This document shows, in pieces, positions 1-4,460 of a stretch of 6,220 bases of DNA. The translations under genes and the position numbers were made by a program. Numbering within the stretch: the first letter of the stretch is position 1; the number at the start of each line of letters is the position of its first letter. This DNA is from a virus (taxonomy: Duplodnaviria > Heunggongvirae > Uroviricota > Caudoviricetes): the IMG/VR virus record IMGVR_UViG_2657244971_000002; one strand, written 5' to 3'. Under the pieces are notes generated by a model, which did no database searches, had not been told where the DNA came from, and was given only the letters and a program-made list of their open reading frames with translations.

Positions 1-1305
1 CTGAGACAATACGGCCCGACCACTGGCAGGTTTGCCCTTAATCGTCCAGCCACGCATATCAGGGATCACGCCTGACGGATAAGCCGCTGCAAGTTTCGGG
101 TATGCAGATTTGTCAAAAGCCTGCCCCTGCATCAGGGCATAACCAGACGGAACGGTATCTGATGGCCACGGGATTGGTGCGCCGACTGGGTAGCTTTCTG
201 GTGGAAGATTTTTCGAGGTATAAACTTCTGCCCAGTCTTCCTCAAAACCATAGCCATCTCTTGAGGAACGGTAGAACAGACCTCCATTTCTGTAATGTGC
301 CTTCATCTGCAAGGTCCGGCAACTTCCGACTCCGGTATAGAAGTTAACCAGAATATAGGTGTCGCCAGAGCGGGTGACATTGTAAGCGCCTGATTCGGCA
401 TTCCAGGGAACGCCACCATCCGCATCGGCATATGTATCCGTTGCCCTTCTGGCAAAAGCAGCCACATGCGCGGCGGTTAAAGTAATATCTTTGGAACCAT
501 CAAACTCAACACCAGAAACCCGTCTTGGCGTTTGCAGCTTTGTTGCTGTTAATGCATTACCGTTCAGACTTGCGGACAGTTTGGTTCCAATAACCAGTTC
601 GCCGGTTGCGTTATCAATAGAAAACGGTCTTAATGTATTCCAGCCACCATAAACATCACCTTGATTGGTAAGCAGCAGGTGAGTTTTAGCGCCATCATTA
701 CGCCATAATGCACCATACTCCCCACCTATCATTCGAATCTGATTACCACCACGCGCTACAATTTCGTCTGTGGCAAAAAGTTTTTTGCACGACAAGTTAT
801 CGTTAACGATTAACGAATTAGACTCATAAAAACCACGCCCACTCTTAAAATCAAGGATAACGTCCGCCGCGATACATTCAGTCGCCGGATTTGTTGCCCC
901 AAACTTATAGATCGTATCATTAACAACGAGATCAGCACCAGGTGCGGATATTGACAGGCCATCTTCGATAAACGCAAAAACAGGGAAAGCTGCGCCATCA
1001 ACATAGAACACAGAGCGCAAATCATCGCCCTTATTACTCATCATTATTGAGTGGATGGCTCGTTCATTGTTTTGATATTGCCAGAACATTCCATAAGCAT
1101 AACGCCCCCTGTCAGTCCAGCCGCCAGGCATAACAAATCCGTTAAACTCGCAGTTATTCATCGGATCGCCTGCGGTTCGCGTTGCCGTGGTGATAATGAC
1201 CCTTGATGCCAGTTCGCTTACTGAGCCAGCAGAACGCATAACAACAACAGGGTAATATTTTCCAGATGTTGCACCTGCAGGAGCGTTAACCCGCACATAA
1301 CGCAT
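1..1305 (-). CDS. stf: Side tail fiber protein (lambda Stf family), partial; 3' end continues beyond window position 1
   Basis: Manual translation of the minus strand gives one uninterrupted frame from ATG at 1305..1303 to position 1 (435 codons: [28 protein letters not shown] ... [64 protein letters not shown]). The C-terminal stretch matches my recollection of lambda/E. coli prophage Stf proteins. Not in the ORF track because there is no stop in the window. No clear Shine-Dalgarno before the ATG. Confidence 0.8.
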
Positions 1306-1549
1306 AACCGACACGGGCAGACTTCACCACATTCACCTCACGGATGTAGTCGCTGCCCATCGCATTCATGATGGCCCGCTGAAAGGGCAGTGTTTCCCAG
1401 CGCCCTTCCTGGTATGCGGATTCTTTCGGGAGATAGTAATTGGCATCCGCCCATTCAACGGCGGTCTGTGGCTCCGGCCTGAACAGTGAGCGAAGCCCGG
1501 CGCGGACAAAATGCCGCAGCCTGTTAACCTGACTGTTCGATATATTCAC
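1286..1549 (-). pseudogene. A: Terminase large subunit gpA, N-terminal fragment only (87 codons; intact gpA is several hundred residues longer)
   Basis: Translation [82 protein letters not shown] matches the lambda gpA N-terminus as I recall it, then diverges (ALCAG, stop). GTG start overlaps the Nu1 3' end as in lambda. Confidence 0.8.
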
Positions 1550-2093: not shown

Positions 2094-2215
2094 AGAAAGG
2101 AAACGACAAAGGCCCAAAAGCTCGTTTTCAGCACCTGTCGTTTCCTTTCTTTTCAGGGGGTATTTTAAATAAAAACATTAAGTTACAACGAAGAAGAACG
2201 GAAATGCCTTAAACC
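2094..2215 (-). other. cosB-like terminase-binding region (R-element repeats, probable IHF site) between cosN and Nu1
   Basis: Perfect 15-bp inverted repeat agaaaggaaacgaca (2094..2108) / tgtcgtttcctttct (2136..2150), 27 bp apart, plus a related tttccgttcttcttcg-type element near 2196..2211 on the minus strand. Position and sequence resemble lambda cosB R-sites (recalled). Confidence 0.6.
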
Positions 2216-2246: not shown

Positions 2247-2258
2247 AGGTCGCCGCCC
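2247..2258 (-). other. cosN: 12-nt cohesive-end sequence (terminase nicking site)
   Basis: Plus strand 2247..2258 is aggtcgccgccc, whose reverse complement GGGCGGCGACCT is the lambda left cohesive end. Adjacent 2259..2274 cgtaacctgtcggatc is the reverse complement of the lambda right-end sequence GATCCGACAGGTTACG. Confidence 0.8.
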
Positions 2259-2457
2259 CGTAACCTGTCGGATCGCCGGAAAGGACCCGCAAAATGATAA
2301 TAATTATCATCTGCATGTCACAACGTGCATCTACGCCATCAAACCACGTCAAATAATCAATTATGACGCAGATATCGTATTAATTGATCTGCATCAACTT
2401 AACGTAAAAACAACTTCAGACAATACAAATCAGCGACACTGAATACGGGACAACCTC

Positions 2458-2643
2458 ATGTCAACGAAGAACAGAACCCGCAGAACAACAACCCGCAACA
2501 TCCGCTTTCCTAACCAAATGATTGAACAAATTAACATCGCTCTTGAGCAAAAAGGGTCCGGGAATTTCTCAGCCTGGGTCATTGAAGCCTGCCGCCGGAG
2601 ACTGTGCTCAGAAAACAGGTCAGACCAGATTGAAGCAATTTAG
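2458..2643 (+). CDS. ynfO: Small ribbon-helix-helix (Arc/MetJ-like) DNA-binding protein, 61 aa, YnfO-like
   Basis: ORF with ATG at 2458 and weak SD ggga 7 nt upstream. Arg/Thr-rich N-terminal arm ([11 protein letters not shown]), predicted beta-strand NIRFP, then helix / G-S-G-N-F-S turn / helix ([11 protein letters not shown]), typical of RHH folds. Position next to cos matches the Qin ynfO context (recalled). Confidence 0.78.
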
Positions 2644-2690
2644 ATAATCGTGCAGACTACGCCCCCTCATATCACATGGAAGGTTTATCT

Positions 2691-3101
2691 ATGGATCAGG
2701 TAGTCATTTTTAAACAAATATTTGATAAAGTTCGAAACGATTTAAACTATCAATGGTTTTATTCTGAGCTAAAACGTCACAATGTCTCACATTACATTTA
2801 CTATTTAGCCACAGAGAATGTTCATATTGTATTAAAAAATGATAATACAGTGTTATTAAAGGGCCTAAAAAACATTGTGTCTGTCAAATTTTCAAAGGAT
2901 AGGCATCTTATAGAAACGACCTCTAATAAGCTGAAATCCAGAGAGATCACATTTCAGGAATACAGAAGAAACCTTGCTAAAGCAGGAGTTTTTCGGTGGG
3001 TTACAAATATCCACGAACAAAAAAGATATTACTATACCTTTGATAATTCATTACTATTTACTGAAAGCATCCAGAAAACTACACAGATCTTACCACGCTA
3101 A
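2691..3101 (+). CDS. ydfO: DUF1398-family protein of unknown function, 136 aa, YdfO/YbcV-like
   Basis: Track ORF is 2676..3101. The internal ATG at 2691 is preferred because the SD-like ggaagg at 2678..2683 sits 7 nt upstream; the 2676 ATG has no SD. Family assignment from recalled similarity to Qin YdfO / DLP12 YbcV. Confidence 0.82.
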
Positions 3102-3200: not shown

Positions 3201-3223
3201 AACAAAACCCCGTAAAAACGAGG
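3201..3223 (-). terminator. Putative intrinsic terminator for gnsB
   Basis: Minus-strand RNA cctcg-uuuuua-cgggg followed by uuuuguuauauuu, about 30 nt downstream of the gnsB stop. Confidence 0.4.
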
Positions 3224-3252
3224 TTTATGGATAAATTTTATTATTGAATACA

Positions 3253-3894: not shown

Positions 3895-4099
3895 TCATTT
3901 TCACTTTTTTAAATCCAACGACAGACGGCTGGCATTTAAGTATTGTGAAATATTATCAAATGTAATCATCATTGATTTACAAAAGATACATTTTGCCCCG
4001 AAAGGATTCATGTCAGAAACATCAAAAGATGATGTTCTATACTGGGAACCATGACAACACGGGCATCTAAAGTGAATATGGTTTGTAATATTGTCTACC

Positions 4100-4312
4100 T
4101 CAAAGCGCCACTACATGAACAGCGGCAGGACCTTTAGGTCCGTTCTCAATACCAAATTCAACTTCCTGATTCTCAGTTAATGTTTTGAAATCGTTGCTCT
4201 GAATTGCTGAGAAATGGACAAACACATCTTTGCTGCCATCTTTCGGCGTGATGAAACCAAAACCTTTTTCAGGGTTAAACCATTTCACTAAACCAGTCAT
4301 TTTGTTAGACAT
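4100..4312 (-). CDS. cspI: CspA-family cold-shock protein, 70 aa
   Basis: Translation [70 protein letters not shown] carries the RNP1-like KGFGFI and RNP2-like VFVHF motifs. cspA-like context aaaggtaataatt before the ATG and aatgactggt downstream-box-like sequence inside the ORF. Confidence 0.93.
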
Positions 4313-4460
4313 AATTATTACCTTTTGAAGAAATTAGCCCTTGGGCAGAATGGTCCGAAAAAAATATCAGAGAGAAAAACCAACAAGGAAATCTCAAGAG
4401 GTACAAATAATAAAATTATAACAATGACTGCTTCAGATAAATTTGTAACAAACCAGAACA

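What the first reader, a model, noticed from the sequence alone, without database searches (positions are those of the whole stretch)
2458..3101. ynfO-ydfO: an RHH DNA-binding protein followed by a DUF1398 protein, oriented against the late operon next to cos
This is a two-gene moron on the plus strand, antisense to late transcription, and AT-rich compared with the flanking terminase DNA. ynfO (61 aa) has a basic arm plus a predicted ribbon-helix-helix; ydfO (136 aa) is basic and Tyr-rich with no recognisable catalytic motif. A small RHH gene immediately followed by a larger gene resembles type II toxin-antitoxin or autoregulated superinfection-exclusion modules, but nothing in the sequence proves this. 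I recall a similar RHH plus DUF1398 pair beside cos in DLP12 (ylcI-ybcV), suggesting a conserved unit.
Basis: inference. Interest (0 to 1): 0.55.

Follow-up and report, generated by a model that had tools for sequence, protein, structure and literature searches.

The report
Two independent lambdoid prophage accessory genes
The two small genes next to the cos site of this E. coli Qin-like prophage are real, but they are two separate accessory modules rather than a toxin-antitoxin pair: a small ribbon-helix-helix DNA-binding protein, and a DUF1398 protein of unknown function that has its own promoter.

Summary
Both ORFs exist as described. ynfO (2458-2643, +) is DUF3950/YlcI-YnfO. ydfO (2691-3101, +) is DUF1398 and matches PDB 2HH8 at 135 of 136 residues. 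Both lie antisense to the lysis and terminase genes, about 200 bp from cosN, in lower-GC DNA.

The 61-aa YnfO is a known 58-bp deletion allele of the usual 77-aa protein. The conserved core (residues 1-49) is intact.

The RHH call is supported by a profile hit and by fold searches. All individual scores are weak, but they agree.

The "conserved two-gene, TA-like unit" is not supported:
- 155 phage records encode the YnfO core; only 43 encode DUF1398.
- YnfO stands alone in Stx-type phages and in PICI-like satellites.
- lambda and DLP12 have ybcW, on the opposite strand, between the two genes.
- YnfO C-terminal tails are hypervariable.
- The DUF1398 gene carries its own conserved ~80-bp upstream cassette, with a PdhR-type box and a GATAAT, in both arrangements.
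- The lambda homologue is dispensable for lytic growth.

The function of both proteins remains untested. The locus is ordinary and already catalogued. The one more interesting lead is that YnfO-family genes sit beside palindrome arrays at satellite control junctions.

The parts
2247..2258 (.). cosN cohesive-end sequence (AGGTCGCCGCCC, the complement of lambda bases 1-12). It marks the boundary between the accessory region and the packaging genes.
   Evidence: The lambda J02459 match ends at record base 48502, which equals window 2259. Sequence read.
2294..2310 (.). Perfect 8-1-8 palindrome ATGATAAT-A-ATTATCAT between cos and ynfO. It is a candidate operator (inferred only). It overlaps the -10 of a minus-strand promoter-like site (10 of 12 matches) that points toward cos and nohA.
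   Evidence: the repeat finder I5; promoter scan. In lambda the arms are kept and the centre base differs.
2458..2643 (+). ynfO, the 61-aa deletion allele of the YlcI/YnfO (DUF3950) protein.
   Evidence: The exact protein is on 20 E. coli contigs.
2458..2604 (+). Conserved YnfO core, codons 1-49: basic arm [13 protein letters not shown], putative beta-strand NIRFP, helix 19-32, helix from residue 37. This is the predicted ribbon-helix-helix domain.
2605..2615 (+). The surviving TGCTCAGAAAA repeat at the 58-bp deletion junction. The deletion shifts the frame of the YnfO tail.
   Evidence: Alignment with the 77-aa alleles. The junction is absent from the 122 loci held at that point.
2614..2630 (.). 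PdhR-type box AACAGGTCAGACCAGAT, centred 69 bp upstream of the ydfO ATG. It is the 5' edge of the conserved DUF1398 upstream cassette.
   Evidence: Located. Reported as a gSELEX PdhR site between ynfO and ydfO in K-12 (PMC7660256). Conserved at 67-70 bp upstream in lambda, DLP12-type and Qin-type loci.
2643..2648 (+). -10-like hexamer GATAAT of a candidate ydfO promoter. The -35 region overlaps the PdhR box.
   Evidence: Permissive promoter scan. The hexamer is conserved in lambda and DLP12-type loci. No transcription start site data were examined.
2678..2683 (+). Shine-Dalgarno GGAAGG for ydfO.
   Evidence: Sequence; conserved.
2691..3101 (+). ydfO, a 136-aa DUF1398 protein: cytoplasmic, basic, Tyr-rich.
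3205..3226 (.). G+C-containing hairpin with T-rich flanks between the convergent genes ydfO and gnsB. It is a candidate bidirectional terminator.
   Evidence: Terminator scan, called on the minus strand.

Best explanation
The interval holds two independent single-gene accessory modules of lambdoid phages. In the Qin lineage they happen to lie side by side.

(1) ynfO. It encodes a small ribbon-helix-helix DNA-binding protein. Only residues 1-49 are conserved: a basic arm, the strand NIRFP and two helices. It most likely dimerises and binds DNA as a transcriptional regulator. The C-terminal tail is simply whatever the neighbouring mosaic segment encodes. The window's 58-bp deletion allele should therefore still be functional. 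The family's typical place is as a lone gene on the opposite strand to a long operon. In lambdoid phages that is the lysis/packaging junction. In PICI-like satellites it is the control junction, directly beside arrays of palindromes. The DNA target in this window is unknown.

(2) ydfO. It is a self-contained cassette: a PdhR-type box, a GATAAT -10, an SD and the gene. It encodes a cytoplasmic basic DUF1398 protein. It is expressed in the lysogen under host and prophage-switch control, not from the late operon. It is dispensable for lytic growth. Its biochemical activity is unknown. I take it to be a lysogen-expressed host-modulating moron, like its neighbours bor, gnsB and cspI.

Shown here: family memberships, fold-level RHH similarity, purifying selection on the core, unlinked distribution, and the conserved upstream cassette.
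Inferred: DNA binding, regulator role, promoter use, and any physiological effect.
For: Identity.

RHH:
- Profile against the PDB: the best hit is the CopG-family RHH 9kkd, aligned in register.
- AF2 model: two helices after an extended N-terminus, pLDDT 71.
- Foldseek list: NikR, MazE9, ParD2, Arc, VapB, NikA, ORF56, CopG.
- Weak HicB-like PHROG hit.

Real protein-coding gene: window against JLK-2012 has substitutions at codon positions 4/1/22, with 19 synonymous and 5 non-synonymous codon changes. Homologues of 36-60% identity keep the K-x-I-R-F-P...N-F-S-A-W-V pattern.

Modularity:
- Homology to Stx phages covers only codons 1-49.
- Tails differ completely between alleles.
- 155 against 43 phage records.
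- Solo YnfO in BP-4795 and JLK-2012.
- Solo YnfO in nine divergent protein families looked up plus the Pmp7 satellite, none with DUF1398.
- ybcW intervenes in lambda.

Regulator-like setting: three or four copies of a GTGTTTAAACAC-type palindrome at 23-24 bp spacing lie immediately upstream of the ynfO-like gene in Morganella, Klebsiella and Dickeya elements. Salmonella has GTGCGGCCACAC-type palindromes.

ydfO autonomy:
- The ~80 bp from the GGTCAGACC box to the ATG is conserved in Qin, lambda and DLP12 arrangements, although the sequence upstream of it differs.
- PdhR gSELEX site; ybcV mRNA falls 10-fold in a pdhR mutant (PMC7660256).
- ydfO, but not ynfO, is among the four Qin genes changed by DicC induction (PMC11430063).
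- ydfO is induced 116-fold by an ionic liquid (PMC4077768).
- lambdap78 is non-essential, EOP 1.9 (PMC10695390).
Against: - The AF2 monomer does not form the beta-strand. This is expected for a fold that only forms as a dimer, but it is still not shown.
- No convincing sigma-70 promoter was found upstream of ynfO. In BP-4795 the upstream DNA is the coding sequence of an HNH gene with no inverted repeats. Neither a target nor a promoter for the lambdoid YnfO is identified.
- In the Qin arrangement there is no terminator between the genes. In the common allele they are even in the same frame, separated by one TGA. Co-transcription and some coupling cannot be excluded.
- In the phage collection every DUF1398 record appears to be a lambda-type phage that also has YnfO, so the association is one-sided rather than absent.
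- The wider DUF1398 family outside E. coli phages could not be sampled.
- The YdfO model was too poor (pLDDT 57) for fold-based inference.
Confidence: 0.6

Rival explanations
1. ynfO-ydfO is a type II toxin-antitoxin or autoregulated exclusion module. YnfO is an RHH antitoxin and repressor, and YdfO is the toxin or effector.
For: - A small RHH gene lies directly upstream of a larger co-directional gene, 47 bp apart in the window.
- RHH folds are common in antitoxins, and several fold hits are antitoxins: VapB12, CopA_SO, MazE9, ParD2.
- No terminator lies between the genes.
- In the phage collection, DUF1398 records appear to be a subset of the records that have YnfO.
Against: - YnfO occurs without DUF1398, and without any co-directional partner, in most phages and in all satellites examined.
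- The genes are about 530 bp apart with ybcW between them in lambda and DLP12.
- The YnfO C-terminal tail is not conserved, and it is frameshifted here while YdfO is unchanged.
- ydfO has its own conserved upstream cassette.
- No PADLOC match.
- The ASKA ybcV overexpression clone was recovered with a glycogen-excess phenotype (PMC2853380).
- lambdap78 knock-down has no effect.
Confidence: 0.07
2. YnfO is an accessory DNA-binding factor for cos recognition or packaging, not a transcription regulator.
For: - It always sits just outside the packaging module: divergent from Nu1 across cos here and in lambda, and divergent from HNH-TerS-TerL in BP-4795 and JLK-2012.
- Three related 129-aa proteins join the YnfO domain to a TerS-like HTH (PF03592, weak hit).
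- cf-PICIs with their own TerS and TerL carry the gene (PMC13612085).
Against: - It is transcribed antisense to the late operon, so it would be poorly expressed when packaging occurs.
- From general knowledge of the lambda system, in vitro packaging works with terminase, IHF and gpFI and needs no such factor.
- In satellites the gene sits at the int/alpA-primase junction, far from the packaging genes.
- In Rouxiella and Pantoea the homologues lie in chromosomal operons.
Confidence: 0.1
3. The ynfO 'ORF' is conserved as a DNA element, either a cos-proximal cis site or a recombination linker between mosaic modules, rather than as a protein.
For: - The 147-bp core is an island of identity flanked by unrelated DNA in different phage lineages.
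- It is nearly identical between the window and lambda: 2 differences in 147 bp.
- Module boundaries fall at its 3' end.
- The lambda RefSeq record does not annotate it.
Against: - Substitutions are concentrated at third codon positions: 22 of 27 against JLK-2012.
- Homologues down to 36% identity keep the reading frame, the start codon and a hydrophobic helix pattern in unrelated genomic settings.
Confidence: 0.05
4. YdfO is a structural ('head') or envelope protein, as some database labels say.
For: PHROG 413 is labelled 'head protein'. RefSeq lambda calls lambdap78 'head protein', and GenBank-derived records call it 'putative envelope protein'.
Against: - Non-essential in lambda, EOP 1.9.
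- Antisense to the late operon.
- No signal peptide or transmembrane segment; maximum KD19 of 0.48.
- Retained and regulated in cryptic prophages that make no virions.
Confidence: 0.03

Closest known systems
E. coli K-12 Qin prophage genes ynfO and ydfO (YdfO structure PDB 2HH8)
   Same: Same genes, same order and same neighbours (nohA, gnsB, ynfN, cspI, rzpQ, rrrQ, ydfR, essQ). YdfO is 135/136 identical to 2HH8.
   Different: The window carries a 58-bp deletion in ynfO (61 aa against 77 aa) and one YdfO substitution (L134 against F). No complete RefSeq E. coli genome matches the whole window as one contiguous stretch.
lambda right end and the DLP12 genes ylcI-ybcW-ybcV-bor
   Same: The YnfO core is identical at protein level. 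The DUF1398 protein is 79% identical. The orientation relative to the lysis genes and cos is the same. The PdhR-box/GATAAT cassette upstream of the DUF1398 gene is the same.
   Different: ybcW (opposite strand) and about 530 bp separate the two genes. The YnfO tail differs. bor follows instead of gnsB and cspI. The ORF is not annotated in NC_001416.
Ribbon-helix-helix regulators (Arc, Mnt, CopG, NikR and PutA N-domains; RHH antitoxins)
   Same: Size; predicted strand-helix-helix order; a basic N-terminal arm; a G-x-x-F-S motif at the start of helix 2; fold-search hits. In satellites the gene is divergent and adjacent to palindrome arrays.
   Different: No significant sequence match to any RHH Pfam family, even at E up to 10. 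DNA binding, dimerisation and target are untested. There is no conserved C-terminal partner-binding region.
Lambdoid morons at the lysis-cos junction (bor in lambda; gnsB and cspI in Qin)
   Same: Small, low-GC, non-essential genes between Rz and cos. ydfO has its own upstream signals and is expressed outside the late programme.
   Different: bor has a demonstrated phenotype, as indicated by its annotation as a serum-resistance lipoprotein. No phenotype is on record for ydfO. The cited oxidative-stress effect belongs to yfdO of CPS-53.

Membership tests
YlcI/YnfO family (Pfam PF13132 DUF3950; NCBIfam NF041551) | Score above the curated cut-offs of the family models | tested here: met
   PF13132: 75.5 bits against 25. 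NF041551: 37.7 against 30.
DUF1398 (Pfam PF07166; YdfO/YbcV) | Full-length match above the gathering score, and identity to the solved member | tested here: met
   157.7 bits against 22, profile positions 1-119 of 119. 135/136 identity to 2HH8.
Ribbon-helix-helix superfamily | Strand-helix-helix topology in about 45 residues | tested here: inconclusive
   AF2 gives helices 19-32 and 37-59 after an extended segment, but no strand forms in the monomer; pLDDT 71.
Ribbon-helix-helix superfamily | Structural similarity to solved RHH domains | tested here: met
Ribbon-helix-helix superfamily | Significant sequence or profile match to an RHH family | tested here: inconclusive
   The best PDB profile hit is the CopG RHH 9kkd at E 0.12. 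No RHH Pfam family matches at E up to 10.
Ribbon-helix-helix superfamily | Dimerisation and sequence-specific DNA binding through the paired strands | not testable with these tools
   Needs biochemistry or a multimer prediction.
Type II toxin-antitoxin module | The antitoxin and toxin genes are adjacent and inherited together | tested here: not met
   155 phage records have YnfO and 43 have DUF1398. YnfO is solo in Stx phages and satellites. ybcW intervenes in lambda and DLP12.
Type II toxin-antitoxin module | The antitoxin has a conserved toxin-binding region, which is C-terminal in RHH antitoxins | tested here: not met
   Tails after residue 49 are unrelated between alleles, and the tail is frameshifted here with YdfO unchanged.
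Type II toxin-antitoxin module | The partner protein is toxic or belongs to a known toxin or defence family | tested here: not met
   No PADLOC or Pfam toxin match. Literature: the ybcV overexpression clone was recovered in the ASKA screen, and lambdap78 is dispensable. Toxicity itself was not assayed.
Phage moron (autonomous accessory gene) | Own promoter and terminator, independent of the phage operons | tested here: inconclusive
   For ydfO: a conserved box plus GATAAT cassette, a published PdhR site and regulation of the paralogue, and a downstream hairpin. No start-site data were examined. For ynfO: no clear promoter.
Phage moron (autonomous accessory gene) | Composition differs from the flanking phage genes, and the gene is dispensable for lytic growth | tested here: met
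   GC is 0.32-0.38 against 0.52-0.55. lambdap78 has EOP 1.9.
Virion head protein (PHROG 413 label) | Expressed with the late genes and required for, or present in, particles | tested here: not met
   Antisense to the late operon. Non-essential. Presence in particles was not tested.

The most novel reading that the evidence does not exclude
The YlcI/YnfO RHH family may be an unrecognised repressor class of mobile-element control junctions. In a widespread group of Enterobacterales and Pasteurella PICI-like satellites it would be the divergently transcribed regulator that binds the GTGTTTAAACAC-type palindrome arrays in front of the replication operon. Lambda, Qin, DLP12 and Stx phages would carry a homologue, unannotated in the lambda reference record, facing their packaging operon. 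Such a homologue could act in the lysogen on a cos-proximal site such as the ATGATAAT-A-ATTATCAT palindrome, or could cross-talk with satellites.
Probability: 0.2. Interest if true: 0.6.

Novelty: already known. Interest (0 to 1): 0.3.

Why it matters
As posed, the finding matters little. ynfO and ydfO are catalogued y-genes of the Qin prophage, both belong to curated families, and one has a solved structure. The toxin-antitoxin idea does not survive comparison with related elements.

What this work adds:
- The RHH assignment for DUF3950 is placed on tool evidence.
- The conserved functional unit of YnfO is only its first 49 codons.
- The DUF1398 gene travels with its own PdhR-box promoter cassette.
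- Some database labels are misleading: the 'head protein' and 'envelope protein' names, and the oxidative-stress phenotype that actually belongs to yfdO.

If the RHH proves to be a regulator at satellite control junctions, and of something near cos in lambda, it would add a new regulatory player in very well studied elements.

Tried and rejected

3. The YnfO-YdfO fusion P0122 (233 aa) as Rosetta-stone evidence. Rejected: it is only the longest representative of a cluster of ordinary YdfO proteins, it is seen on 6 short contigs, and all 164 Qin-type spacers in my loci keep the TGA stop.

4. Reaching distant DUF1398 relatives. The locus and homologue searches return only the closest hits, all at least 68% identical. 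DUF1398 outside E. coli phages therefore stayed unsampled.

5. Many 'genome' hits in unrelated taxa are lambda control-DNA contamination (3.5-kb or 48.5-kb contigs) and were ignored.

6. A consensus promoter upstream of ynfO: none found.

7. Rfam found only the cspA thermoregulator, which is unrelated to the finding.

8. Reported phenotypes. The oxidative-stress claim for YdfO traces to Wang et al. 2010, which mentions yfdO and not ydfO. The 'ydfO' in PMC9181523 is the same confusion.

9. The PICI regulator described in PMC11773190 is PerC/ANR-like, not YnfO.

Full report
**What the window is.** The window is the right end of a Qin-like lambdoid prophage of E. coli. On the minus strand lie a tail-fibre fragment, a truncated terminase large subunit (1286-1549), nohA/Nu1 (1524-2069), gnsB, ynfN, cspI, rzpQ, rrrQ, ydfR and essQ. 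The lambda record ends at window base 2259. The 12-nt cohesive end therefore lies at 2247-2258. On the plus strand are ynfO (2458-2643) and ydfO (2691-3101).

**Checking the observation.** Both ORFs are real and belong to curated families.
- ynfO is DUF3950/YlcI-YnfO (Pfam E 2.9e-21; NCBIfam above its cut-off).
- ydfO is DUF1398 (E 1.5e-46) and is 135/136 identical to the NMR structure 2HH8 of E. coli YdfO.
- A GGAAGG 7 nt before the ATG at 2691, together with the RefSeq annotation, favours the 136-aa start.
- GC falls from 0.52-0.55 over the terminase genes to 0.43-0.46 over ynfO and 0.32-0.38 over ydfO.
- YdfO has pI 9.75, 9 Tyr and no hydrophobic segment.
- The orientation is antisense to the lysis and packaging genes.

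In close relatives ynfO is 234 nt (77 aa). The window lacks 58 bp between two copies of TGCTCAGAAAA, which shifts the frame after residue 52 and gives the tail [12 protein letters not shown]. None of the 122 loci held at that point carries the junction. No complete RefSeq genome matches the whole window as one contiguous stretch. The exact 61-aa protein is nevertheless recorded on 20 E. coli contigs, so it is a real circulating allele.

**Is ynfO a gene, and is its product an RHH?**
- Residues 1-49 are nearly invariant among E. coli alleles, while the tails after residue 49 are unrelated.
- An exhaustive search found 117 representatives. The genuinely divergent ones (36-60% identity) keep K-x-I-R-F-P-x-x-L-I-E-x-I, a variable loop, then N-F-S-A-W-V-x-x-A-C.
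- Against the Stx-type phage JLK-2012, 22 of 27 nucleotide differences in the core are at third codon positions, with 19 synonymous and 5 non-synonymous codon changes. That is protein-level purifying selection.
- A profile of the family has a CopG-family RHH (9kkd) as its best PDB hit, aligned in register, at E 0.12.
- The AF2 model (pLDDT 71) has two helices, 19-32 and 37-59, after an extended N-terminus.
- The Foldseek list is again mostly RHH proteins, though no E-value is below 1.

No single score is significant, but they agree. I accept the RHH assignment at about 75% confidence.

**Are ynfO and ydfO a unit?** They are not.
- Among 50,697 phage records, 155 encode the YnfO core and only 43 encode a DUF1398 protein. 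All 43 are lambda-like.
- In BP-4795 and JLK-2012 the packaging module is different (HNH, TerS, TerL). ynfO stands alone between Rz and the HNH gene, on the opposite strand and with no co-directional neighbour.
- DNA homology between those phages and the window starts at the ATG and stops at codon 49.
- In lambda and DLP12-type loci, ybcW (opposite strand) and about 530 bp separate the two genes.
- Nine divergent homologue families were looked up. Five lie in PICI-like satellites (Morganella, Klebsiella, Dickeya, Salmonella and a metagenomic contig). Three lie in chromosomal or integrative-element settings in Rouxiella, Pantoea and K. oxytoca.
- An unannotated 59-aa homologue lies in the Pasteurella Pmp7 satellite.
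- None of these loci has a DUF1398 gene.

In RHH antitoxins the C-terminal part binds the toxin. Here that part is hypervariable, and it is frameshifted while YdfO is unchanged. PADLOC has no match.

**ydfO has its own control region.**
- PdhR gSELEX reported a site, AAcaGGTcagACCAgaT, between ynfO and ydfO in K-12. ybcV mRNA falls 10-fold in a pdhR mutant (PMC7660256).
- That box is at window 2614-2630.
- The ~80 bp from the box to the ATG, including a GATAAT at 2643-2648 and the SD, is conserved in Qin-type, lambda and DLP12-type loci, with the box centred 67-70 bp before the ATG. The sequence upstream of the box is different in each arrangement.
- In the 77-aa allele the last YnfO codons (KQVRPD) are simply a translation of this box. 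This explains why the tails vary: the mosaic boundary lies at about codon 50.
- ydfO, but not ynfO, is among the four Qin genes that change on DicC induction (PMC11430063).
- ydfO is induced 116-fold by an ionic liquid (PMC4077768).
- The lambda homologue lambdap78 is non-essential, with EOP 1.9. The apparent essentiality of lambdap79 is probably a polar effect on late transcription; that is my inference (PMC10695390).

**Database labels and phenotypes.**
- PHROG 413 and RefSeq call the DUF1398 protein 'head protein', and GenBank-derived records call it 'envelope protein'. Neither label fits its orientation, its dispensability or its hydropathy.
- The statement that YdfO overexpression raises oxidative-stress resistance cites Wang et al. 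2010. That paper mentions yfdO (CPS-53) and never ydfO.
- No phenotype for ydfO is on record in the library. The ybcV ASKA clone was recovered with a glycogen-excess phenotype.

**What YnfO may do.**
- In the satellites it is the only gene on the opposite strand. It lies about 200 bp from, and divergent to, the small-ORF/primase operon.
- That spacer holds three or four copies of a GTGTTTAAACAC-type palindrome at 23-24 bp spacing. The last copy is about 20-30 bp before the ATG. The array is shared by Morganella, Klebsiella and Dickeya. Salmonella has GTGCGGCCACAC-type palindromes at similar positions.
- This is the layout of a divergently transcribed repressor with operators. No paper in the library that discusses PICIs together with AlpA mentions a ribbon-helix-helix protein.
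- In the window the cos-ynfO spacer has other palindromes, notably ATGATAAT-A-ATTATCAT at 2294-2310. That palindrome overlaps a minus-strand promoter-like site pointing at cos and nohA. This is not statistically notable, and BP-4795 has nothing comparable.
- The target of the lambdoid YnfO is therefore unknown.

**Verdict.** The RHH and moron parts of the interpretation hold. The TA-like, conserved two-gene unit does not hold. The locus is already catalogued and its function is still unknown. The satellite operator arrays are the only lead of wider interest.

Noticed in passing
L286:4870-4990, L289:4875-4985, L292:4875-4940, L300:4896-4987: Arrays of a near-perfect palindrome (GTGTTTAAACAC-type; GTGCGGCCACAC-type in Salmonella) at 23-24 bp and about 46 bp spacing. 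They lie directly upstream of the lone opposite-strand ynfO-like gene in PICI-like satellites of four genera, and they look like operators at a divergent promoter.
   Followed up: partly
lambda NC_001416 48157-48303 (equivalent to window 2458-2604): The YnfO core ORF is identical at protein level in phage lambda, but it has no annotated feature in the RefSeq or J02459 records.
   Followed up: partly
P0308, P0354, P0358; locus L285:4714-5103: Three related 129-aa proteins join a YnfO-type domain to a TerS-like HTH (PF03592, weak hit). L285 places one of them in a PICI-like element next to the integrase.
   Followed up: partly
window 2605-2615: A 58-bp deletion between TGCTCAGAAAA direct repeats, probably from replication slippage, creates the 61-aa ynfO allele. 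In the common allele ynfO and ydfO are in the same frame, separated by a single TGA and 19 sense codons. The deletion breaks that frame relation.
   Followed up: yes
window 4073-4457 (-): A cspA-type thermoregulator 5' UTR (Rfam RF01766, 114 bits) spans the 5' region of cspI.
   Followed up: no
window 1-1549 (-): Only the first ~87 codons of the terminase large subunit remain. They run into tail-fibre-like sequence, so the head and tail genes have been deleted and the prophage is defective.
   Followed up: no
window 2094-2150: A 26-nt inverted repeat (81% complementary) between the nohA start and cosN. By position it probably corresponds to the cosB Nu1-binding repeats of lambda.
   Followed up: no
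window 2294-2321 (-): A sigma-70-like site (GTGACA, 16 nt, TATCAT; 10 of 12 matches) pointing toward cos and nohA. Its -10 lies inside the 2294-2310 palindrome. It is not above the chance expectation for this region.
   Followed up: no
L009-L039 (genome-contig hits): Lambda right-end sequence appears in assemblies of unrelated taxa (Kitasatospora, Brevibacillus, Arcanobacterium 'plasmid', Pedobacter and others), mostly as contigs of about 3.5 kb or 48.5 kb. This looks like sequencing control-DNA contamination.
   Followed up: no
literature: PMC4077768 ref. 32; PMC9181523: ydfO (Qin) and yfdO (CPS-53) are confused in two papers. The oxidative-stress phenotype attributed to YdfO belongs to yfdO.
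   Followed up: yes
L298/L299:2155-5852 and L295:1921-5476: In Pantoea a YnfO homologue is co-directional within a DUF2946 - TonB-dependent receptor - CopC cluster. In Rouxiella one lies after cytochrome bd-type genes that are also preceded by DUF2946. The family is therefore not restricted to mobile elements.
   Followed up: no
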